Below, in pieces: positions 1-12,494 of a stretch of DNA of 64,000 nucleotides. A program made the position numbers and the translations under genes. Origin of the DNA: Candidatus Bathyarchaeota archaeon. Lineage in GTDB: Archaea; Thermoproteota; Bathyarchaeia; 40CM-2-53-6. The stretch is taken from contig CAWABQ010000010.1 of the NCBI GenBank assembly GCA_963780265.1, forward strand, positions 32,288 through 96,287, written 5' to 3'. How positions within the stretch are numbered: position 1 is the first letter of the stretch; each line of letters opens with the position of its first letter. The notes below the pieces were generated by a model. The model made no database searches. It was given only the letters and a program-made list of their open reading frames with translations, and was not told where the DNA came from.

Positions 1-47
1 TCGAAGACGAATATATGAAAAGAAAGGGGCCGTGCCTTACACCTGTA

Positions 48-548
48 CTAGAAGTGAGTGAGAAGCAGCGGGATTCCTGAACATGCGTAGTAGTTTTGGT
101 TGTACGGAATTGTGCCCTGGACGGAAACGTATCCGGTCGGATAGTTCGTGACCATGTTGCCATACTGGTCGTAGAGGGCGTATGTGAACCCGGTGTTCGT
201 GTTCGTCAAGTAAATGCAGCCGCCAGCCACTTGGCTTGGAGCTAGGTAGCCGTAGATCTGCTGAGTTTGGCCCTGGCCGTAGCATTGGTACTGGTTCGGA
301 TACTGACACTGATAGTTAGGATTCCCAAAGTTGTAATTAGGGTAGAGATTCTGCGTTGAGACAGATGTGCTCACAACCGTCTTAGTCTCAGTAGAGAAAG
401 ATGTTTCCGTCTGCGTCTGCGACACCGTACCAGTAGTCGAAGACGTCACAGTCGAAATTTGAGGATGCCCAACGAAATACACTGTAGTCCCTGAAATACC
501 TGCAAACGCAGCGACAACAGCCACAATGATCACGACAACTGGAAACAA
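48..548 (-). CDS. hypothetical membrane-anchored protein, Thr-rich linker followed by Tyr/Gln/Asn/Gly-rich low-complexity domain
   Basis: ORF track 166 aa. N-terminal hydrophobic helix (MFPVVVIIVAVVAAFAG), then TSSTTGTVSQTQTETSFSTETKT, then YPNYNFGNPNYQCQYPNQYQCYGQGQ. Last gene of a same-strand operon-like run. No recognisable family. Confidence 0.4.
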   Translation of the reverse strand: MFPVVVIIVAVVAAFAGISGTTVYFVGHPQISTVTSSTTGTVSQTQTETSFSTETKTVVSTSVSTQNLYPNYNFGNPNYQCQYPNQYQCYGQGQTQQIYGYLAPSQVAGGCIYLTNTNTGFTYALYDQYGNMVTNYPTGYVSVQGTIPYNQNYYACSGIPLLLTHF

Positions 549-593
549 CCAGTGAGGGTAAACTGTGCGCAGGTTGAGATTCCATTCTTCAAT

Positions 594-755
594 TCACCCC
601 CTCGTCTTCTTGGCTTTGAATTCTCGAAGCCAACTCGAAAACCGAACGCCCACGTAACCTATGGAGAGGAAGGCGCCTAGAACAACAATCACAAGAAGAT
701 TGATGCTCGGGTAACGAATTGCTAAGTAGACCGCAAGCCAGGGGAATAAGACCAT
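594..755 (-). CDS. small hydrophobic protein (about 53 aa, two predicted TM segments), unannotated in ORF track
   Basis: My translation gives MVLFPWLAVYLAIRYPSINLLVIVVLGAFLSIGYVGVRFSSWLREFKAKKTRG. It sits between the ATPase and the Y/Q/N-rich gene on the same strand. Start uncertain (an upstream in-frame extension is possible). Confidence 0.25.
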   Translation of the reverse strand: MVLFPWLAVYLAIRYPSINLLVIVVLGAFLSIGYVGVRFSSWLREFKAKKTRG

Positions 756-850
756 GCCGAGGAGGAGCAGTTTCTCTTTCAGCGGGATTTGCGGGACTTG
801 GCCTACATTTTGCCTTTTCCCGTTACTCGGTTGATTGTCGACTTCGGCTT

Positions 851-1537
851 CTATTTCACGTACTTTCGTTGCGAAGCTAAGTCGAGGAACTTTTGTCGCG
901 CCAACAAAGGTATTCTCCGTGTGACTAGCACCCAGCCTTTCTCACGCTTCGCTTTGGCGACCTTGAGGAGCTCAAGCTCAGAGTCCCCTATCCCGTACTC
1001 GTTTCTGTAGAAATCTCTGTCCCACTTCGCAAGGGGAGCAGACATTAACAAAACTCCCGCATAATTCGTCCTAGTATCCAGAGGAGTCCCCTGGATCCTA
1101 TGAGTTGAGAAAACGATTCCACAGACTCCTTCCCGTAAACCCGTTCTTTCCTTCATAATGTGTCGAATTCTGAAGAAGTCTGCAAGAACCGAGTCAGGGA
1201 TTACAACCTTGGTTGCGTCCTCAATAATGAGGATTTGACAGAATTTCTTTTCCCACTTTGCCTGAAGCATTAACGCGAAGTCATGGGCATTCGCCCTCAT
1301 CACAGCGACGTTCCGTCGACCATAATGTTTCACCGCCTCGTTGACGACAAGCTTAGCCGTATTGCTCTTGCCGCTGGACATGTCACCGTTCACATAGAGT
1401 ATGAATTGTTCGATCGCATTATCATCAAGATCATCTGAAGCTTGGAAGAGTTCAGCTGGGAATAATTGGTTGAAATATTTCTCTAAGTCGACTTCTGGAA
1501 CACGGGGCAGAGCCATACATTCCTCCAAGATGCTCAA
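851..1537 (-). CDS. P-loop NTPase of unknown family
   Basis: Walker A GDMSSGKS and Walker B-like hydrophobic strand ILIIED. Start overlaps the stop of the upstream membrane-protein gene by 4 nt, indicating translational coupling. Confidence 0.5.
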   Translation of the reverse strand: MSILEECMALPRVPEVDLEKYFNQLFPAELFQASDDLDDNAIEQFILYVNGDMSSGKSNTAKLVVNEAVKHYGRRNVAVMRANAHDFALMLQAKWEKKFCQILIIEDATKVVIPDSVLADFFRIRHIMKERTGLREGVCGIVFSTHRIQGTPLDTRTNYAGVLLMSAPLAKWDRDFYRNEYGIGDSELELLKVAKAKREKGWVLVTRRIPLLARQKFLDLASQRKYVK

Positions 1538-1899
1538 CCTTTCTTAAACCCAAGAGCGAACATGAGGGCTGCCGGGCCGCTGAAAGCTGTGATGCTGGCT
1601 AAGATGGGACTCAGAGATCCTAGACTGCTAATGGCCGAAGTCAACAGCGTTTGACCTGAGGCTGAGATTGCGTCCCAATGAATTGTTACCGTGATCCATC
1701 CCTGCCCTTCAGCCCAAGCCGTCGCCGCGATGATGAGCCCGATGAAGAATGCAGTAACGTACATGACTATTTTCGCAACTTTCTTCACAAGCCAGCCGCT
1801 CACAAAACCGACACCGCCCCCGCTAACAATTTGCGGCAGCAACGAAGATAATGATGAAATGTCAAAGGCCATTTTGGAGTTCACCCTCAAATCAGACAA
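1534..1899 (-). CDS. small integral membrane protein (2-3 TM)
   Basis: Hydrophobic segments GGGVGFVSGWLV and YVTAFFIGLIIAATAWA. Coupled to the downstream ATPase gene. Confidence 0.4.
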   Translation of the reverse strand: MSDLRVNSKMAFDISSLSSLLPQIVSGGGVGFVSGWLVKKVAKIVMYVTAFFIGLIIAATAWAEGQGWITVTIHWDAISASGQTLLTSAISSLGSLSPILASITAFSGPAALMFALGFKKG

Positions 1900-1910
1900 T
1901 CTGCGACATG

Positions 1911-2120
1911 CTAGCGTTTGGGATATGGTGTCCCATGTTTGCGGGCGTGTCCTGTCTCGAAATTCATGAGGTCAAGTTGGTTGTTTCCGCTCGCGGTCAC
2001 TAGGTCTCGTATGAGGGCCGCTAGGAGTGACTCGATGCGTTTGGGGTTCTTGCGGTTCCTCTCGGCCAAGCAGAGGACCATACCTACGCCTTCGATCATG
2101 CCTTCAAGGCGATCATTCAT
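1911..2120 (-). CDS. hypothetical small protein (69 aa)
   Basis: ORF in tight same-strand spacing (11 nt to the next gene). No recognisable motif. Confidence 0.25.
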   Translation of the reverse strand: MNDRLEGMIEGVGMVLCLAERNRKNPKRIESLLAALIRDLVTASGNNQLDLMNFETGHARKHGTPYPKR

Positions 2121-2193
2121 TCATTTTCACCTCTCCTTCTCAGCCTTGTCCATGGCTTTGTACATCTCATTCAACCATCCATCTTCACTACTT

Positions 2194-2553
2194 CTACTCG
2201 GCAGCTGAGGCTTGAGCGATTATGCGAGACTGGATCGCCGTCTTCCTGGCCAGGAGCGCTTCAGCGTTCCGCGCGATCATCAGCCGAATCCCTTCACGGA
2301 TAGGATCCCCTAGATCCCTGTAGTTACAGAGGTCCACGATTTCGCCGAGTTGGCTCCATGCGTTGCTGGAAACGATCAGGTCCTTGACGATTAGGTTCTT
2401 CAGGTCCCACTCTTCAGCTGTGGGCGTCGGAGGTTTGTCGCCAGGCTTCTTGATCAGGGTTTGAATGTACTGTTCTACGGTGAGGTCCTTGTACTTCGCC
2501 GTCTTCTCAAGCAGATTATAAGTCTCATTGGTCATCAGAATTTTCTTGCTCAT
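2194..2553 (-). CDS. ribbon-helix-helix (CopG-like) domain protein, about 119 aa
   Basis: Track ORF runs to 2619, but the ATG for MSKKILMTNETYNLLEKTAKYKDLTVEQYIQTLI is preceded by GGAGGTGA at a 7-nt spacer. The beta-strand/helix pattern is typical of RHH N-terminal domains. Confidence 0.4.
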   Translation of the reverse strand: MSKKILMTNETYNLLEKTAKYKDLTVEQYIQTLIKKPGDKPPTPTAEEWDLKNLIVKDLIVSSNAWSQLGEIVDLCNYRDLGDPIREGIRLMIARNAEALLARKTAIQSRIIAQASAAE

Positions 2554-2694
2554 GCATCCGTCACCTCCTCGGTTGCGGTCAAGGGTTTCATTGGGTTGTG
2601 GAACAGTGAGACGTGACACACGTTCACCTGTACCCTGAGAAGGTCTTCTTCACTTGTTTTGGCTAAGTCGAATCGTGCCATGGGTTCTTTCGCC

Positions 2695-2748
2695 GCTTCT
2701 ATAACAGAAGCACAAGCAATATATTAACGTTGCTTCTATAACTGAAGC
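2695..2748. promoter_or_regulatory. two direct copies of a 17-bp palindromic site GCTTCTATAAC(A/T)GAAGC flanking a TATA-like AATATATTA; putative operator/promoter of the 2759 gene
   Basis: Copies at 2695-2711 and 2732-2748 are each GCTTC-N7-GAAGC. The AT-rich box at 2718-2726 is about 35 nt upstream of the ATG at 2759. The region is divergent from the RHH gene. Confidence 0.45.
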
Positions 2749-2758
2749 GGAAAGGAAC

Positions 2759-2959
2759 ATGTTCACTAGGATCCTAACCACGAAGGAACGCCGGCGAATC
2801 CAAGCCTACATCGACGCTGACGGCGAGAGAACATCAGCGATCCGAACGATAGTCACAAGGGCGAACCAGGTGCTACCGTCGATCGAGAAGGACCTGCAGC
2901 TCCTCAAAGAGCTCTTGGAACATTACGAGGCTGCGAAGGCCAAGAAGGGGCGAGGTTGA
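2759..2959 (+). CDS. hypothetical small helical protein (66 aa)
   Basis: ATG immediately downstream of the operator-like repeats. Basic N-terminus (TKERRRIQ). No family recognised. Confidence 0.35.
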   Translation: MFTRILTTKERRRIQAYIDADGERTSAIRTIVTRANQVLPSIEKDLQLLKELLEHYEAAKAKKGRG

Positions 2960-3098
2960 TCGGGGCAGTTTCAAACTCTTAGATGTAAAAGAGGGGGGGC
3001 TGAGGATCCCGACGCAACAAGTATTACATGCGCAGTGGAAAAGGTGGCATGTGGATATCAAGCATGCGAAGCTAGGTTCAACATCCAAGGCTTGAACT

Positions 3099-3410
3099 GT
3101 GGCGTCCCTCTTGAAGTTCTACCATTACACGAAGGAAAGAAGACTTCGCTCCATTCAGAAATACGGACTACTCCCCGGAAAATCTGACAAAGCATTCGTG
3201 TATCTTTGGGACTCGTACGAGTTGGCGCTTGACAATTGCATCATCTTGACAAGGGACAGGAGAAAGCCTGCGAAGGTTGCGATTCTTCAGGTAAATATTC
3301 CTAAGTCTTGGACAGAAGCCGACGATGGTTACTGTGTGGGAGAAACAGGCCACGGGCATTCGTTCCGGCTTAGAAGACGAGTAAGCCCTCGGCGATTGAA
3401 GCTCCTTTAG
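3099..3410 (+). CDS. hypothetical protein (103 aa)
   Basis: ORF only. Basic C-terminus. No recognisable motifs. Confidence 0.25.
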   Translation: MASLLKFYHYTKERRLRSIQKYGLLPGKSDKAFVYLWDSYELALDNCIILTRDRRKPAKVAILQVNIPKSWTEADDGYCVGETGHGHSFRLRRRVSPRRLKLL

Positions 3411-3833
3411 GTAGACTGACCTTGGAGCCTGCTTCAATTACGCTGAGCAGCCTGATGCGCAAAGCATGGGGCTACTTCAGGGGGATCAGAAAGCAATCAC
3501 CGAGACCGAGAGAGGCCTCATTGCCCTTGGCTGCGTCCACTCTGTCCAGTCTGTCCACGGTTCTAGATACCTAAGCTACAACTGCCAAAGGAGATCTTCT
3601 TAGCTTTCGAAACCCGCGGTGATTGAAGCTACACGGTAGGGTTTGCGTGTCACCATTTAACGGGGGATGTCAACAGAGTGAGAGAACTAGGTAGCGAGAC
3701 ACTAGGAGCATTGCTTTGTCTCTAGGTGAGAGCCCTTCCAGCATCACTAGGAATTATTTCTAGTCAATCTTTTCTAGCTAGAGAGCGTAAGGGCCTCTAT
3801 CCCTTGGGCTACAGTAGCCAACTGGTGAAATTC

Positions 3834-4397
3834 ATGCGTAATGGGGCAACAAAAGGCTTAGTAATCACCGTGAGCGGCCCCCATGGAACAGGCAAGTCGA
3901 CTTACGCAAAAGCCCTCGCGGAAGCTTTGGGGTTGCGGTATGTCTCCGCAGGAGAATTGTTCAGGGACCTAGCGAAGGAAAGAAACCTATCCCTGGAGGC
4001 TTTCAGTAACCTTGCCGCCGAGGACCCTACGATAGACAAGATGATTGATGAGAGGACCAAGGCCGAAGCTAGGAGGGGGGGCATCGTAATCGACGCGCAG
4101 CTTGGAGCTTGGATGGTTAAGGACATTGCAGACGTAAAATTACTCATGGTCGCACCCGATGAAGTCCGTTTCAAGCGAATAGCCGATAGAGATGGCGCAT
4201 CGCTCGCTTCCGCGAAGAAGGAAACAATAGCCCGCGAAGACATACAGAAACAGCGTTACAAGAAATATTACGGAATCGAGGTGGATGAGCCAGGCATCTA
4301 TGATCTTAAGATAGACACCAGCCTGTACTCGGTCGAACAAACCAAGTCCCTTGTTATTGCAGAAGTGCGAAAACTTCTCGCCAAGAAAGAAACTTGA
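3834..4397 (+). CDS. cmk: cytidylate (CMP) kinase, archaeal type
   Basis: P-loop VITVSGPHGTGKST begins right after the internal ATG at 3834. Length about 187 aa. Conserved archaeal context cmk-rpl14e-cbf5. Confidence 0.8.
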   Translation: MRNGATKGLVITVSGPHGTGKSTYAKALAEALGLRYVSAGELFRDLAKERNLSLEAFSNLAAEDPTIDKMIDERTKAEARRGGIVIDAQLGAWMVKDIADVKLLMVAPDEVRFKRIADRDGASLASAKKETIAREDIQKQRYKKYYGIEVDEPGIYDLKIDTSLYSVEQTKSLVIAEVRKLLAKKET

Positions 4398-4826: not shown

Positions 4827-5913
4827 ATGTTCTTGGTTTCTGATCGTCGTGTTACTCTACTTAATAGCATCAAAGGCGTAAGAAATCGCGAAGAGGTGAA
4901 CCGTTTGCAGAATCTCATGCCCTGGCAGGTCACTAGAGAACTGGTCGCGAAAGCCGACGATGTGACCGACCCGCGTTATGGCTTCACGCCGGAAGAAAGA
5001 CCAATGCCACTACGAATCAAGTACGGCATCATCAACGTCGATAAGCCTGCTGGGCCGTCGAGCCATGAAATAGTTGCTTGGATCAAGCGCATGATGAAAT
5101 TGTCCCACGCCGGCCACGGTGGAACCCTAGAGACATAACTGTCGGGGTAATCCCAAAGTAACCGGCGTTTTGCCCGTAGGCCTACAAGATGCCACGAAGG
5201 TCATTCAGGGCTTTCTCTACTCGGGCAAGGAATACGTTTGCATAATGCAAATTCACGCCGACATCCCCGAAGCAACTGTTCGCGACGTCCTAAGCCAATT
5301 CGTGGGCGAGATTTACCAGAAACCACCGCTTAGAGCGTCCGTGAAAAGGGAGACGAGGAAACGTTTCATCTACCAACTCAACGTGCACGAAGTAGACGGG
5401 CGGACAGCCCTCTTCACATGCTCATGCCAAGCCGGCACCTACATCCGTAAGCTTTGCTCTGACATCGGTGAAGTGCTCGGTTGTGGTGCCCACATGCGGG
5501 AGCTGAGGAGGACGCGTGCGGGCCCATTAAGCGAGAATGATGGGATTGTGACCTTGCATGAATTGAGTGCGGCGCAATCCGATTTCGAGGCCGATAACGA
5601 AGCGCCCCTGCGGAACATAATCAAGCCCATGGAAGTGGCGCTCTCTGCCCTTCCGCATATTGTAATTCGTGATTCGGCGGTTGACGCGGTTTGCCACGGA
5701 GCCGAATTAGCTTTACCGGGCATAGTGAAATTGGATTCCTTGATTGAGCGTAACAAGTTTGTTGCGGTGTTTACGTTGAAAGGGGAAGGGGTCGCATTAG
5801 GGCGCGCCTTGATGGCGTCTAGGGAGATGCTTGACCAGGAGAAGGGGGTGGCTGTGAAGACTGAACGGGTTCTCATGGAGCGAGGGACGTACCCGGCCCT
5901 CTGGAAGCACTGA
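4827..5913 (+). CDS. cbf5: tRNA/rRNA pseudouridine synthase Cbf5 (TruB family), coding sequence interrupted by a 19-nt insertion at the catalytic Asp codon (candidate mRNA intron)
   Basis: Exon 1 ends GIINVDKPAGPSSHEIVAWIKRMMKLSHAGHGGTL. Exon 2 continues PKVTGVLPVGLQDATKV...PUA domain...YPALWKH. Removing 5132-5150 restores GTLDPKV, the universally conserved TruB motif. Confidence 0.85.
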
Positions 5914-6192
5914 TTTCGCGGGTGCTTCGAGAGCCGGATGTCCATCCTATGTTATACATTGGGGCCTCCGGCACGGACGCAGGCTTGAATGTGCGTTTCA
6001 TTATGTGGTGTAGTTTTCTGGGTACAACATGTTACTCGTCCCGAAGGCCAGTGGAGAAATGACTGTGTATAACATATGCTAGGCATCCTTTCGTTCCATC
6101 CGCTATGCGTTGGTTGATTGTACACTGTTTCGCCTTTGCTTGAGAAGCCCGAACAGGCTTAAATTGGGCTAGGAATTGTGAAACCATTTGGA

Positions 6193-6310
6193 GCCGGGGT
6201 TCCCGAGCCTGGTACGGGGCAGATTCACCTAGCCTAAGCCTGGAATCAACGGAACCGCAAGCCTGTGGTCCTTACGGGCCTCGAGGGTTCAAATCCCTCT
6301 CCCGGCGCCA
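6193..6310 (+). tRNA. tRNA gene, 118 nt with encoded CCA, intron-containing; isotype unresolved (type II features suggest Leu or Ser)
   Basis: Acceptor GCCGGGG pairs with UCCCGGC, then discriminator G and CCA. D-arm CCCG-AGCCUGGUA-CGGG. T-arm GAGGG-UUCAAAU-CCCUC. Candidate variable arm GGUCC-UUAC-GGGCC. There are 64 nt between the D and T arms where about 22-39 are expected, so one or more introns are present. I could not identify the anticodon by eye. Confidence 0.6.
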
Positions 6311-6355
6311 TTCAAAATGTTTCTTTCGGAATGCGCGCATTTTCGTGTCGTTCTA

Positions 6356-10562: not shown

Positions 10563-12494
10563 TTATGGACAGGCGTTGGAACCTGTGGTGACGACACCAG
10601 TAGTGGTAGCGCCGGAGTCTGTTGAACTTTGACAATTGGCACCGGTGAAGTTGGCGTTTGTGAGGTTGGCGTTGTTCATGTTCGCTCCCTGTAAGTTGGC
10701 TCCCTGTAGGTTGGCTCCTGAGAGGTTAGCACCTGACAAATTGACGTGTTGGAGGTTGGAACCTTGTAGGTTGGCTCCTGAGAGGTTAGCGCTTTGCAAG
10801 TTGGCTCCCTGGAGGTTCGAACCCTGTATCTTTGCTCCTTGCAAATTGGCATTCTGTAAGTTGGCATTTTGGAGGTTTGATCCCTGCACATTAGCGCCTT
10901 GGAGGTTGAGTCCTTGGAGGTTGGCTTTCTGTAGGTTCTTTCCTGCTAAGTTGAGGTTCGGGAATAGGACGCCTGGTATGAAACTGGCTACGTCGGGTGT
11001 TCCCCAACCGGTGGTTAGGTCGTATCCTGTGCCTGCGGTGAATCCATCATATGATGCGATTCCGGCCGTGGCGCTGTTGTTGCCTTGCACTATGTCGTGG
11101 AATGCTCTACTGTAGAGTGAGCTTTGGGCTAGGTTGTAGATTGCTGGGGTGATGAAGCCGACGGGGCCGCCGTTCACTTGGTTCATGAGGGCGATTTCTG
11201 CAGCCAACGCTGGTGAGCTAGCGCTTGTTCCACCGAAGACTGCCCACGCGCCAAGGAATCCAAGATAGGCAAGTACGCCGCCTGAGACGGCGGAGTTGAA
11301 TGAAATGTCTGGAACCAATCTCGCGTTTGCTGCGGAGGCAGTACTGCCTAGTAGAGTGGGGAATGAGTTGGGTAGAGTTGCCTGATAGGTTGGCCTGCTG
11401 TAGAGTGTGCTGATTCCACCACCGGTGGAAGTTGGAGCGCCTTCCCAGTTCCACTCGTTCCAAGCTCCTTCGCCGCCATAAGCGGTTGGGAAGCAACTTG
11501 AGGGTTCACCTGGCCTGGTCGCTGTTCCGCATCCGTTTGCGCCGCCGTTGATTATTACTAGACCTGTGTTGCATGTTGCTCCTGCTGCGCAGCTGAATGT
11601 GTTGCCACTTCCAGGTGGAAATCCATATTGTCCTCCGAATGGGTAGCCCTGTGTACCGCCAGCTGATATGACGAGAGGGCTCGTTGATGGCCATGATGGA
11701 ATTAGGGTCGTTGATGGGAAGTCTGTTTCCGCGCCGAAGTCAGCGGACGAGGCTAGAAGGGTCCATTTGTTGTTCGTTGCTGTCTGATACATTGCGTCTG
11801 CCTGTGCTTGGAATCCTGCCGGATCGCCAAGGAGCGCGTCTTCTCCTTGTCCGAAGCTCTGTGACATTATGCTGCCTTTGAGGGTTTTTTGCGATACTAC
11901 GGCTTGTTGTGCTGCGAGGATGCTGGTGTCGAAGCAGTCAGCAGCGACCACTAGGACTATTTTGGCTCCAGGTGCAAGTGCATGGGACTGTGTGATGTCG
12001 AGGGTGGTTTCTTCTGCCCAACCTACTGCACCGCATAGTGCAGCGTTCGGGGCTGTGCTAAGGTCCGATATTGTTTTCACGGGACAGACATCAGTTGGAG
12101 CTCCCGTCCATGTTGGAGGGCAGAGTACCGTCACCGTCGTAGCTGGGAGGCTGAAGGTTGTGTCATATGTGTTCAGGTCGGACTGGGCAGTTGGGCTGCC
12201 AAACGCGTCTACTATGACGATCGTTGAGCCGGTTCCATTAAGTCCATCCGGAAAGTCGTAGGCCGTCTTGAGGAAGTTAGGAGGGTAGCACATGATGTTC
12301 CCGCGGGAACCGCTGAAACAGAACGGAACTCCACCCACGGGTGCGGTTGGATTGAACGATGGACCAAGTAGAGCCATCGGTGGGCTGACAGTAAAGATTC
12401 CGGCACGATTGTTTGGAGTTGAGTATGCTAGAGTTGAGCTGGTCACTAAGAGAAGTAGTGTTGCTGTTGTTGCTATCGTTAGAAATTTTCTCAT
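10563..12494 (-). CDS. secreted sedolisin-like (S53/S8 clan) serine peptidase fused to a C-terminal pentapeptide-repeat domain
   Basis: Signal peptide MRKFLTIATTATLLLLVTSSTLA. GGTSASSPALAAE (Ser nucleophile motif) and GYDLTTGWGTPDV (sedolisin C-terminal motif). About 25 ANLxG-type repeats at residues about 505-620. Confidence 0.6.
   Translation of the reverse strand: MRKFLTIATTATLLLLVTSSTLAYSTPNNRAGIFTVSPPMALLGPSFNPTAPVGGVPFCFSGSRGNIMCYPPNFLKTAYDFPDGLNGTGSTIVIVDAFGSPTAQSDLNTYDTTFSLPATTVTVLCPPTWTGAPTDVCPVKTISDLSTAPNAALCGAVGWAEETTLDITQSHALAPGAKIVLVVAADCFDTSILAAQQAVVSQKTLKGSIMSQSFGQGEDALLGDPAGFQAQADAMYQTATNNKWTLLASSADFGAETDFPSTTLIPSWPSTSPLVISAGGTQGYPFGGQYGFPPGSGNTFSCAAGATCNTGLVIINGGANGCGTATRPGEPSSCFPTAYGGEGAWNEWNWEGAPTSTGGGISTLYSRPTYQATLPNSFPTLLGSTASAANARLVPDISFNSAVSGGVLAYLGFLGAWAVFGGTSASSPALAAEIALMNQVNGGPVGFITPAIYNLAQSSLYSRAFHDIVQGNNSATAGIASYDGFTAGTGYDLTTGWGTPDVASFIPGVLFPNLNLAGKNLQKANLQGLNLQGANVQGSNLQNANLQNANLQGAKIQGSNLQGANLQSANLSGANLQGSNLQHVNLSGANLSGANLQGANLQGANMNNANLTNANFTGANCQSSTDSGATTTGVVTTGSNACP
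10637..10982. repeat. 15-nt-periodic coding repeats (pentapeptide repeat array) inside the peptidase gene
   Basis: Reiterated GGCTCC/TTGCAAGTTGG-type units on the + strand. The antisense ORF 10636..11115 is an artefact of this array. Confidence 0.6.

What the first reader, a model, noticed from the sequence alone, without database searches (positions are those of the whole stretch)
48..2619. Compact minus-strand operon of ATPase, small membrane proteins and a Thr/Tyr/Gln/Asn-rich anchored protein, headed by an RHH protein; uncharacterised, possibly element-derived
Six tightly spaced or overlapping genes read in order: RHH protein (SD-like GGAGGTGA), 69-aa ORF, 121-aa membrane protein, P-loop NTPase (GDMSSGKS; 4-nt overlap with the membrane gene, indicating translational coupling), 53-aa hydrophobic ORF, then a 166-aa protein with TM anchor plus Thr-rich linker plus Y/Q/N/G-rich low-complexity tail. 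This architecture (small NTPase embedded among small membrane proteins plus an unusual surface/structural protein, under an RHH regulator) resembles archaeal provirus/plasmid modules or a dedicated secretion/assembly system more than housekeeping genes. It sits upstream of the conserved cmk-rpl14e-cbf5 block, and the window cuts it at position 1.
Basis: partly seen in the sequence, partly recalled or inferred. Interest (0 to 1): 0.6.

Follow-up and report, generated by a model that had tools for sequence, protein, structure and literature searches.

The report
Decaying edge of archaeal mobile element
The block is the cut-off end of an undescribed kind of mobile genetic element sitting in a Bathyarchaeia chromosome, built around a membrane-anchored ATPase paired with a small FUN14 membrane protein, and two of its genes are already broken by frameshifts.

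Summary
The minus-strand gene block is real, but it holds five genes, not six. The "228-aa ATPase" and the "53-aa hydrophobic ORF" are one gene split by a single-G deletion near 917/918. Restoring the G gives a 307-aa ATPase with a C-terminal two-helix membrane anchor, as in its relatives. The Thr/Tyr/Gln/Asn-rich gene has also lost its original ATG (585) through a 1-nt insertion.

The block is not housekeeping. Close Bathyarchaeia relatives have rpl15-secY-adk-DUF106-rpl34e-cmk-rpl14e-cbf5. In the window, homology to them starts exactly at the cmk start, and none of 80 related loci carries any of the block's genes.

The same genes recur, shuffled, on peat and sediment metagenome contigs. There they sit with tyrosine integrases, a TFIIB-like/ParB pair, TnpB, AbiTii, a membrane-anchored M10-like peptidase and several Thr-rich anchored surface proteins.

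The ATPase belongs to an unannotated family: 181 clusters among 1.84 billion representatives, and no Pfam, PHROG, PADLOC or NCBIfam hit for the window protein. Its confident model is closest to viral A32-type packaging ATPases (STIV2 B204), but only moderately. A FUN14 gene lies next to it in 9 of about 15 informative contexts.

Best reading: a decaying remnant of a cryptic integrated element whose core is a membrane translocation or assembly module. Whether it is virus-like or conjugation-like is open.

The parts
2194..2553 (-). Gene A: a 119-aa small regulator with two strand-helix-helix (RHH-like) units. It is the first gene of the operon.
   Evidence: ATG 2553 lies behind GGAGGTGA and matches database protein P0152. 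It has six homologues at 67-79% identity. Two of these lack the N-terminal unit. The only profile hit is a weak NikA-like match in 2 of 7 homologues. In L112, L113 and L117 its homologue sits at an element edge next to a wHTH gene.
2695..2748 (.). Operator-like site. Two copies of the 17-nt palindrome GCTTCTATAACAGAAGC (2695-2711 and 2732-2748) flank an AT-rich TATA-like box, between gene A and the divergent gene G.
   Evidence: repeat-finder results. The position in the divergent intergenic region was read. Function is inferred, not tested.
1911..2120 (-). Gene B: a 69-aa soluble protein of unknown function.
   Evidence: ORF with a GGAGAGGTGA motif upstream. It is 64-65% identical to the ORFs at the same position in L001, L110 and L111. 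No family hit.
1534..1872 (-). Gene C: a 112-aa FUN14-family membrane protein with about three TM segments. It is the conserved partner of the ATPase.
   Evidence: Pfam PF04930, E=2.7e-7, above the gathering score. ATG 1872 lies behind GAGGGTGA. A FUN14-like gene is adjacent to the ATPase gene in the window, L001, L082, L086, L092, L093, L096, L103, L110/111 and L116.
594..1516 (-). Gene D/E: one gene for a P-loop ATPase with a C-terminal TM hairpin. A 1-nt deletion at about 917/918 splits it into a 221-aa ATPase ORF (851-1516) and a 53-aa TM ORF (594-755).
   Evidence: Alignments to P0002, L001 and L111. Restoring one G gives a 307-aa ORF. The AlphaFold2 model has pLDDT 90.2. Nearest folds are STIV2 B204 and A32-like ATPases. 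The family has 181 representatives.
48..585 (-). Gene F: an N-terminally anchored protein with a Thr/Ser-rich linker, a Tyr/Gln/Asn/Gly-rich stretch and a small Cys-containing beta-rich C-terminal domain. A 1-nt insertion near 570 separates the original ATG (585) from the rest.
   Evidence: Homologues follow the ATPase gene in L001, L110/111 and L116. The structure model is unusable, with pLDDT 44.8.
2759..2959 (+). Gene G: a 66-aa helical, basic protein transcribed divergently from A across the palindromes. It may be the second half of a regulatory switch. Its membership in the element is inferred.
   Evidence: ORF. Only sub-threshold HTH-like hits. No homologue in the related elements.
3099..3410 (+). 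Gene H: a 103-aa ORF in the non-syntenic stretch, function unknown.
   Evidence: ORF. Weak, sub-threshold resemblance to the RNA 2'-phosphotransferase (Tpt1/KptA) family in two libraries. Absent from relatives.
3411..3833 (.). Non-coding junction. Homology to related Bathyarchaeia genomes resumes at the cmk start (ATG 3834). In those genomes rpl34e ends 3 nt before cmk.
   Evidence: blastn and tblastx breakpoints fall at 3824-3860. rpl34e, DUF106, adk and secY are absent from the whole window.

Best explanation
Window 1 to about 3833 is one end of a cryptic integrated mobile genetic element in a Bathyarchaeia chromosome, lying at a break in the otherwise conserved rpl34e|cmk junction. The window cuts off the rest.

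The element belongs to an undescribed family found in peat and sediment metagenomes. Fuller copies of this family carry:
- a tyrosine integrase;
- a TFIIB-like/ParB pair;
- a small regulator (RHH-like, AbrB/MazE-like or wHTH);
- a conserved membrane module, made of a small protein B, a FUN14-family membrane protein, a P-loop ATPase held in the membrane by a C-terminal TM hairpin, and an N-terminally anchored Thr-rich and Tyr/Gln/Asn-rich surface protein;
- often also a membrane-anchored M10-like zinc peptidase and a surface protein of 430-480 aa.

Proposed mechanism (inferred, not shown). The RHH-like protein A binds the paired palindromes and controls the operon. The ATPase oligomerises at the inner face of the membrane with its FUN14 partner. 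Like its nearest structural neighbours, the A32/FtsK-HerA-type packaging ATPases of membrane-containing viruses, it then drives translocation of the element's DNA, or assembly, across or into a membrane. That membrane would belong either to a membrane-bound particle or to a recipient cell. The anchored glycoprotein-like proteins would provide the surface contact.

In this genome the ATPase gene and gene F each carry a frameshift, so this copy is probably inactive and decaying.
For: Shown:
1. Synteny breaks at the cmk start. The canonical upstream genes are present in relatives with 87-89% identical Cbf5 but absent from the window.
2. None of genes A-H occurs in 80 related loci.
3. The module recurs, colinear, in L001 and L116: FUN14, ATPase-TM, F, M10-like peptidase, surface protein, then TFIIB-like and ParB.
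4. L110 adds an integrase (E=8e-14) and TnpB. L112 has an integrase (E=1e-8).
5. The relationships are mosaic. Window 409-896 is 81% identical in DNA to L110/111, while the ATPase domain is only 40% identical in protein.
6. FUN14-ATPase adjacency holds across ATPases only 35-45% identical.
7. About one third of the 150 best family members have a C-terminal TM segment, and these include most of the closest ones.
8. The ATPase model is confident (pLDDT 90.2). Its best PDB match is the STIV2 B204 packaging NTPase (TMq 0.50). Its best BFVD matches are an uncultured archaeal virus protein (TMq 0.61-0.66), a Nitrosopumilus spindle-shaped virus protein and many A32-like ATPases.
9. Some homologues carry inteins.
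10. Both frameshifts are verified against two independent relatives. About 5.5 kb of syntenic housekeeping coding sequence nearby aligns without any frame break.

From the literature: TFIIB coupled to ParB was described as typical of thaumarchaeal integrative-conjugative elements. Most thaumarchaeal integrated elements are 'cryptic' and lack hallmark genes (PMC6563490).
Against: - No integrase, att site or second junction is visible in the window, because it is cut at position 1. A rearrangement breakpoint that carries old element DNA would look the same.
- G+C content is not distinct from the flanks.
- No capsid, portal, terminase, VirB4 or VirD4 gene was found in any sampled relative.
- No relative of the ATPase, F or the surface protein was found in IMG/VR, and none of the ATPase or the FUN14 protein in the phage or plasmid collections.
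- Sequence-profile comparison does not link the ATPase to STIV2 B204 (probability 4%) or to pleolipovirus VP8 (29%, P-loop only).
- The fold match is moderate, and generic AAA+ proteins also score.
- The DNA-translocation role is therefore inference from fold neighbours and context only.
- The frameshifts could be assembly errors.
Confidence: 0.6

Rival explanations
1. It is a provirus remnant of an undescribed membrane-bound (pleomorphic, spindle-like or vesicle-type) archaeal virus. The FUN14 protein and the anchored glycoprotein-like proteins would be virion membrane and spike proteins, and the tail-anchored ATPase would be the packaging or morphogenesis NTPase.
For: - The best structural neighbours of the ATPase are viral: STIV2 B204, A32-like ATPases, and proteins of an uncultured archaeal virus and a Nitrosopumilus spindle-shaped virus. 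The last three are about 305 aa, like the full-length protein here.
- An ATPase is reported as a core gene of all spindle-shaped viruses (PMC10866085).
- The L083-L085 contigs (20-58 kb) consist only of ORFans, with nine or more TM-anchored Thr-rich ectodomain proteins around the ATPase gene.
- The gene logic resembles HRPV-1: small membrane protein, spike, then ATPase.
Against: - No capsid protein was recognised, and there are no PHROG hits.
- No IMG/VR relatives.
- hhalign to pleolipovirus VP8 and to STIV2 B204 is not significant.
- The small membrane protein is a bona fide member of the cellular FUN14 family, not a known capsid protein.
- A TFIIB-ParB pair is more typical of plasmid-like or ICE-like elements.
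Confidence: 0.25
2. It is part of an integrative conjugative-type element or plasmid. The membrane ATPase, the FUN14 protein and the surface proteins would form a minimal DNA-export or mating apparatus.
For: - A tyrosine integrase and an adjacent TFIIB-like/ParB pair are present, the pairing described for thaumarchaeal ICEs.
- There are many surface-exposed anchored proteins and a membrane peptidase.
- The ATPase fold lies in the FtsK/HerA neighbourhood, which also includes conjugation ATPases.
Against: - No VirB4/TrbE, VirD4/TraG, VirB6, pilin or prepilin-peptidase homologue was seen in any sampled 6-21 kb stretch.
- The ATPase domain is only about 220 aa, far smaller than conjugation motors.
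- No hit in 72,556 plasmids.
Confidence: 0.2
3. The ATPase, FUN14 and anchored-protein module is cargo: a defence or abortive-infection system, or a surface-remodelling system, carried by the element. It would not be the element's own propagation machinery.
For: - In L001 the module lies near AbiTii, and in L087-L090 the ATPase lies next to a type I restriction-modification system.
- 20 of 60 family members weakly match the nSTAND3 NTPase profile.
- Pairs of an ATPase with a membrane protein are common in defence islands (general knowledge).
Against: - No PADLOC match for any window protein, and only P-loop-level hits for one relative.
- The module is the most constant part of these otherwise shuffled elements, and it is colinear in L001, L116 and L110. 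That is unusual for cargo.
- Inteins occur in some ATPase copies.
Confidence: 0.1
4. It is an ordinary lineage-specific chromosomal operon for a membrane function, placed next to cmk by a rearrangement.
For: - FUN14 is a widespread cellular family.
- G+C content matches the host.
- No integrase is visible in the window.
Against: - It is absent from all close relatives at this locus and from the pattern scan of 185,579 species genomes.
- Its homologues sit with integrases, ParB and TnpB on other contigs.
- Its relationships are mosaic.
- Two of its five genes are frameshifted.
Confidence: 0.05

Closest known systems
Cryptic integrated elements and integrative-conjugative elements of Thaumarchaeota (Krupovic et al. 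2019, PMC6563490)
   Same: - Integrated in an archaeal chromosome of the same broad lineage (Thermoproteota).
- A tyrosine integrase in fuller copies.
- A TFIIB-like gene immediately upstream of ParB.
- Most genes are ORFans.
- No viral hallmark genes.
   Different: - No VirB4/VirD4/VirB6 or pilin set.
- The constant core here is a FUN14 protein plus a small tail-anchored ATPase plus anchored surface proteins, which that survey does not describe.
- The host is Bathyarchaeia.
- The window copy is truncated and frameshifted.
A32-like (FtsK-HerA superfamily) genome-packaging ATPases of membrane-containing viruses, e.g. STIV2 B204 (PDB 4KFT) and PRD1 P9
   Same: - Size of about 200-220 aa.
- Walker A and Walker B motifs.
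- A similar segment after strand 4 (STHR here, STQR in B204).
- The best PDB fold match.
- It works at a membrane. In PRD1 the ATPase sits at a vertex with small membrane proteins (own knowledge, not tested).
   Different: - TM-score is only about 0.5.
- The profile comparison is not significant (probability 4%).
- No double jelly-roll capsid gene is nearby.
- This ATPase carries its own C-terminal TM hairpin.
Inovirus pI / Zot morphogenesis ATPases
   Same: The architecture matches: an N-terminal P-loop domain followed by a membrane anchor, encoded among small hydrophobic proteins and an anchored adsorption-like protein with low-complexity linkers. This is architecture only, and the comparison rests on own knowledge.
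   Different: - No Zot (PF05707) hit among the 25 most-matched Pfam families listed for 60 family members.
- No inovirus protein among the top 50 BFVD matches.
- No rolling-circle Rep gene was seen.
Pleolipovirus conserved core (HRPV-1 VP3, VP4, VP8)
   Same: The same kind of gene set: a small multi-TM protein, an anchored surface protein and a putative ATPase of about 340 aa, under small regulators.
   Different: - hhalign to VP8 matches only around the P-loop (probability 29%).
- No sequence similarity of C or F to anything in the phage/archaeal-virus collection.
FUN14 family (PF04930; FUNDC1-like membrane proteins)
   Same: Gene C passes the Pfam gathering score over 88 of 92 profile positions.
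   Different: No function is known for prokaryotic FUN14 proteins. A conserved pairing with a tail-anchored ATPase on mobile elements did not turn up in the one literature search run.

Membership tests
FUN14 (PF04930) | Score above Pfam's gathering cut-off over most of the profile | tested here: met
   31.3 bits against a cut-off of 22.5, E=2.7e-7, profile positions 1-88 of 92. Homologues in L082, L110, L111 and L087 are also annotated FUN14.
P-loop NTPase (ASCE division) | Walker A GxxxxGK[ST], Walker B hhhh[DE], and a five-stranded core fold | tested here: met
   G56, K57 and D107 are invariant or nearly so across the family. The AlphaFold2 model, pLDDT 90.2, has a beta-alpha core.
A32-like / FtsK-HerA viral packaging ATPase | Significant sequence or profile similarity to A32, P9 or B204 | tested here: not met
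   hhalign of the family profile against STIV2 B204 gives probability 4%. Pfam Pox_A32 hits 1 of 60 members, and FtsK_SpoIIIE hits 5 of 60 weakly. The profile search of PDB sequences gives nothing below E=0.02.
A32-like / FtsK-HerA viral packaging ATPase | Closest fold neighbour | tested here: inconclusive
A32-like / FtsK-HerA viral packaging ATPase | Encoded next to a jelly-roll major capsid protein gene | tested here: inconclusive
   No neighbour has a Pfam or PHROG capsid hit. Structure-based capsid detection of the neighbours could not be run.
Ribbon-helix-helix regulators (CopG/Arc/MetJ, PF01402 and relatives) | Match to an RHH profile or to the RHH fold | tested here: inconclusive
   No Pfam hit for protein A even at E<=1. 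No PDB sequence hit. NikA-like (an RHH family) hits 2 of 7 homologues at E=0.008. Two strand-helix-helix patterns are visible in the alignment. No structure model was made.
Integrated mobile element with tyrosine recombinase | Integrase gene and flanking att repeats | tested here: inconclusive
   No integrase or att site is seen in window 1-3833, and the element is cut at position 1. Related elements L110 and L112 have Phage_integrase above the cut-off. The only direct repeat near the junction, 21 nt at 3383 and 3610, is unproven.
Integrated mobile element | Interrupts conserved synteny, with patchy presence among relatives | tested here: met
Archaeal integrative-conjugative element | [quoted passage not shown] | tested here: not met
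   None is present in any sampled stretch of related elements. Only the TFIIB-like/ParB pair is shared.
Pleolipoviridae core | Homology to VP8 NTPase, VP3 and VP4 | tested here: not met
   hhalign to HRPV-1 VP8 gives probability 29%, around the P-loop only. tblastn of the ATPase and of FUN14 against the phage/archaeal-virus collection gives no match.
Known anti-phage defence systems (PADLOC) | Match to a PADLOC model | tested here: not met
   No hit for any window protein.

The most novel reading that the evidence does not exclude
The FUN14 protein, the tail-anchored ATPase and the set of anchored Thr-rich surface proteins are the morphogenetic core of an undescribed group of capsid-less, membrane-bound transfer particles of Bathyarchaeia. 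These could be pleomorphic viruses or plasmid vesicles. The ATPase would load the element's DNA into a budding membrane through, or alongside, the FUN14 protein. That would give a cellular-type FUN14 protein its first prokaryotic function and would define a new lineage of viral or vesicle ATPases.
Probability: 0.2. Interest if true: 0.75.

Novelty: new variant of a known kind. Interest (0 to 1): 0.45.

Why it matters
Bathyarchaeia are abundant and uncultured, and their mobile elements are barely known. One survey reports 56 virus genomes in four proposed families (PMC10848311).

This block points to a recurring element family with three notable properties:
- None of the annotation libraries tried (Pfam, PHROGs, PADLOC, NCBIfam), nor IMG/VR or the phage and plasmid collections, recognises its core.
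- It has a clear and conserved two-gene core: a FUN14 protein and a membrane-anchored ATPase from a family of about 180 sequence clusters.
- It shares the TFIIB-like/ParB pair with thaumarchaeal conjugative elements.

It offers a concrete marker pair for mining such elements. It also offers a testable idea for how they leave the cell.

The window copy itself is only a broken remnant. Its main practical value is as a pointer to the family, and as a correction to the gene calls: one frameshifted ATPase gene rather than two genes.

Tried and rejected
Searches that found nothing for the window proteins:
- Pfam, PHROGs, PADLOC and NCBIfam scans of all window proteins gave only the FUN14 hit.
- phmmer of the ATPase and of protein A against PDB sequences, and a family-profile search against PDB, gave nothing beyond the P-loop.
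- tblastn of the ATPase and the FUN14 protein against 50,697 phage or archaeal-virus records and 72,556 plasmids gave no match.
- IMG/VR scans with the ATPase (single sequence and alignment), F and the 430-aa surface protein found no relative.
- A scan of 185,579 species genomes for close relatives of the ATPase found none.

Attempts to see beyond position 1 failed:
- Exact look-ups of P0001 and of the window's Rpl14e were not on record.
- The cluster look-up gave no accession.

Structure work:
- The model of F was too poor (pLDDT 44.8) to search with.

Other negatives:
- hhalign to HRPV-1 VP8 and to STIV2 B204 was not significant.
- PHROG scans of ten L083 proteins gave nothing.
- Rfam found no RNA in the block or the junction.
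- The sigma-70-type promoter and terminator scan is uninformative for an archaeon.
- I could not retrieve the Nitrosopumilus spindle-shaped virus record to compare its ATPase directly.

Readings rejected: a housekeeping operon (synteny), a known defence system (PADLOC), and a Zot or VirB4 assignment (no profile support).

Full report
**What is in the sequence**

Reading the DNA and comparing with relatives changes the gene model in four places.

- Gene A most likely starts at ATG 2553, behind GGAGGTGA. That gives 119 aa, identical to database protein P0152.
- Gene B is 1911-2120.
- Gene C most likely starts at ATG 1872, behind GAGGGTGA, giving 112 aa.
- The ATPase most likely starts at ATG 1516, behind GGAGG. 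That gives 221 aa (P0001), 17 nt after the stop of C.

Relatives have 4-17 nt spacers.

**Two frameshifts**

The closest relative of the ATPase is P0002 (76% identity, 311 aa). It continues past the window's stop codon through a linker into a two-helix hydrophobic tail. That tail is the homologue of the window's "53-aa ORF", and most close family members have the same tail.

DNA alignment with L001 and L111 shows no gap downstream of about 915, and the window's other frame reads the homologous linker. The break is one missing G (CGGGAG to CGGAG) at about 917/918. Restoring it gives a 307-aa ORF. The 53-aa ORF has no Shine-Dalgarno motif.

Gene F's homologues start MESQPRTVYP.WLFP. The window still has that ATG (585) behind a conserved AGGGGGTGA, but it carries one extra base near 570 relative to L111.

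About 5.5 kb of neighbouring syntenic housekeeping coding sequence aligns to relatives without any frame break. The two indels are therefore more likely real decay than general assembly error, but read-level evidence is needed.

**Host and position**

Cbf5 is 87-89% identical to that of Bathyarchaeia genomes from peat and Danish soils. Those relatives have rpl15-secY-adk-DUF106-rpl34e-cmk-rpl14e-cbf5, with rpl34e ending 3 nt before cmk.

In the window, homology begins at 3824-3860, which is the cmk start at 3834. rpl34e, DUF106, adk and secY are nowhere in the 64 kb. None of genes A-H is found in any of the 80 related loci.

So 1-3833 is non-syntenic DNA abutting a broken, normally tight operon junction. 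G+C content is not distinctive.

**The proteins**

- *C* is a FUN14-family membrane protein, above Pfam's threshold.
- *The ATPase* has no Pfam, PHROG, PADLOC, NCBIfam or PDB-sequence match.
  - An exhaustive HMMER search of 1.84 billion representatives finds a family: 181 representatives at E<=1e-3 and 77 at E<=1e-10.
  - Invariant or near-invariant positions include the Walker A G56 and K57, the Walker B D107, R125, H146 and R156.
  - Members weakly touch generic AAA, nSTAND3, HerA and FtsK profiles. A few carry inteins or zinc ribbons.
  - The AlphaFold2 model is confident, with pLDDT 90.2.
  - Foldseek puts the STIV2 packaging NTPase B204 first in the PDB (TMq 0.50), ahead of RFC, DnaA and Vps4-type AAA+ proteins.
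  - In BFVD the best matches are two proteins of about 305 aa, one from an uncultured archaeal virus (TMq 0.61-0.66). A Nitrosopumilus spindle-shaped virus protein and dozens of A32-like packaging ATPases follow.
  - Profile comparison with B204 and with pleolipovirus VP8 is not significant.
  - I therefore describe it as an ASCE P-loop ATPase whose nearest neighbours are A32-type viral ATPases. I do not file it in that family.
- *F* is 14.5% Thr, 10.8% Tyr and 9.6% Gln. It has an N-terminal TM helix, a Thr/Ser linker, a Tyr/Gln/Asn/Gly stretch and a small Cys-containing beta-rich end. Its model is unusable.
- *A* shows two strand-helix-helix units, and two homologues lack the first. The only profile support is a weak NikA-like hit in 2 of 7 homologues.
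- *Regulatory region.* Between A and the divergent gene G lie two copies of the 17-nt palindrome GCTTCTATAACAGAAGC around an AT-rich box. This is a plausible operator-promoter arrangement, but it is inferred.

**The same genes elsewhere**

| Locus | Content |
|---|---|
| L001 (12 kb, JGI) | B, FUN14, ATPase-TM, F, M10-like membrane peptidase, 445-aa surface protein, RHH-like protein, GIY-YIG, AbiTii, TFIIB-like zinc-ribbon protein overlapping ParB |
| L116 | Colinear with L001 |
| L110/L111 | MazE-like regulator, B, FUN14, ATPase-TM, F, plus the peptidase, the surface protein, TnpB, a tyrosine integrase (E=8e-14) and TFIIB-like/ParB |
| L112/L113 | wHTH, an A homologue, FUN14, the peptidase, the surface protein, an integrase (E=1e-8), and a different TM-anchored P-loop protein whose N-terminus resembles that of family member P0013 |
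| L083-L085 (contigs of 20-58 kb) | The ATPase gene behind a small RHH gene, among nine or more TM-anchored Thr-rich ectodomain proteins; no Pfam or PHROG hits at all |
| L087-L090 | The ATPase inside a 1-Mb contig next to ParB, a type I restriction system, TBP and a Dam methylase |
| L117 | An A homologue with a wHTH gene lying directly beside aIF5B, NDK, S28e and L7Ae; this looks like another element edge at a different chromosomal site |

The relationships are mosaic. Window 409-896 is 81% identical in DNA to L110/111, while the ATPase domain is only 40% identical in protein.

A FUN14-like gene is adjacent to the ATPase gene in 9 of roughly 15 contexts with enough flank to judge.

**Interpretation**

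Four things mark the block as part of a mobile element rather than a housekeeping operon: the synteny break, the patchy and mosaic distribution, the company of integrase, ParB, TnpB and Abi genes, and the frameshifts.

The survey of thaumarchaeal integrated elements reports that TFIIB is coupled to ParB in their conjugative elements. It also reports that most integrated elements are "cryptic", lack hallmark genes, and may be new viruses or plasmids (PMC6563490). The present family fits that description.

It differs in one respect: it has a recognisable constant core of a FUN14 protein, a tail-anchored ATPase and anchored surface proteins.

By analogy with its structural neighbours, I propose that the ATPase works at the membrane with its FUN14 partner to move the element's DNA, or to assemble a membrane-bound particle, with the anchored proteins on the outside. 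That step is inference.

- *For a virus-like reading:* the viral fold neighbours and the envelope-protein-like gene set.
- *For a conjugation-like reading:* the TFIIB-ParB pair, the integrase, the absence of any capsid gene, and the absence from IMG/VR.
- *Against a defence-cargo reading:* no PADLOC match, and the module is the most constant part of the elements.

**Verdict**

The thing itself is a truncated and probably inactive remnant. The family it reveals is undescribed as far as the libraries and literature searched here show.

Interest is moderate. It is a new variant within the known category of archaeal cryptic integrated elements, with a useful marker gene pair and an open mechanism.

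Noticed in passing
window 5132-5150 (boundaries +/-2 nt), inside cbf5 (4827-5913): cbf5 is read in two frames. Removing a 19-nt insert (GACATAACTGTCGGGGTAA) restores the universal GTLDPKVTGVLPV motif. The insert and the frame change are conserved in all close Bathyarchaeia relatives. It therefore looks like the short mRNA intron known in crenarchaeal cbf5 genes (own knowledge), not an error.
   Followed up: partly
window 3099-3410 (+): This 103-aa ORF in the non-syntenic stretch (starts MASLLKFYHYTKERRLRSIQKYGLLPG) has weak, sub-threshold similarity to RNA 2'-phosphotransferase (Tpt1/KptA) in both PHROGs and NCBIfam. It may be a small ADP-ribosyltransferase-fold protein.
   Followed up: no
window 3383-3403 and 3610-3630: A 21-nt direct repeat, 86% identical and 227 nt apart, straddles the end of ORF H and the non-coding stretch before cmk. 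It could be chance or a trace of an attachment site.
   Followed up: no
L092 610-2772 and L101 1669-3284: Two homologues of the ATPase carry an insertion of about 345 aa just after the P-loop region. One family member hits the Pfam intein splicing domain. These appear to be inteins in this ATPase family.
   Followed up: partly
window 409-896 versus L110 9698-10176 / L111 2284-2762: This stretch is 81% identical in DNA across the ATPase tail and the start of F. The ATPase domain just upstream is only 40% identical in protein. That implies a recombination breakpoint at the boundary between the ATPase domain and its linker.
   Followed up: partly
L112 3-1286: This is a different P-loop protein, not matched by the family HMM. 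It has the same kind of C-terminal TM anchor, and its N-terminal domain resembles that of family member P0013. It looks like a replacement of the ATPase domain within the same architecture.
   Followed up: no
window 6100-6320: This non-coding stretch is conserved at about 75-80% in relatives. It has a small Rfam hit to the 3' end of tmRNA/tRNA-like structure at 6282-6299, yet ARAGORN finds no tRNA in the whole window. It may be an unusual or intron-containing tRNA.
   Followed up: no
window 10563-12494 (-): This gene encodes a 643-aa secreted protein with a long pentapeptide-repeat tail (ANLQG repeats). It fills a gap of about 2.5 kb that is absent from close relatives L002, L004 and L005. It is a second variable spot in the window.
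   Followed up: no
L117 680-1513: A full-length homologue of gene A, with a wHTH neighbour, lies directly beside aIF5B, NDK, rpS28e and rpL7Ae, without the membrane module. This suggests a second remnant of such an element, again next to translation genes.
   Followed up: no
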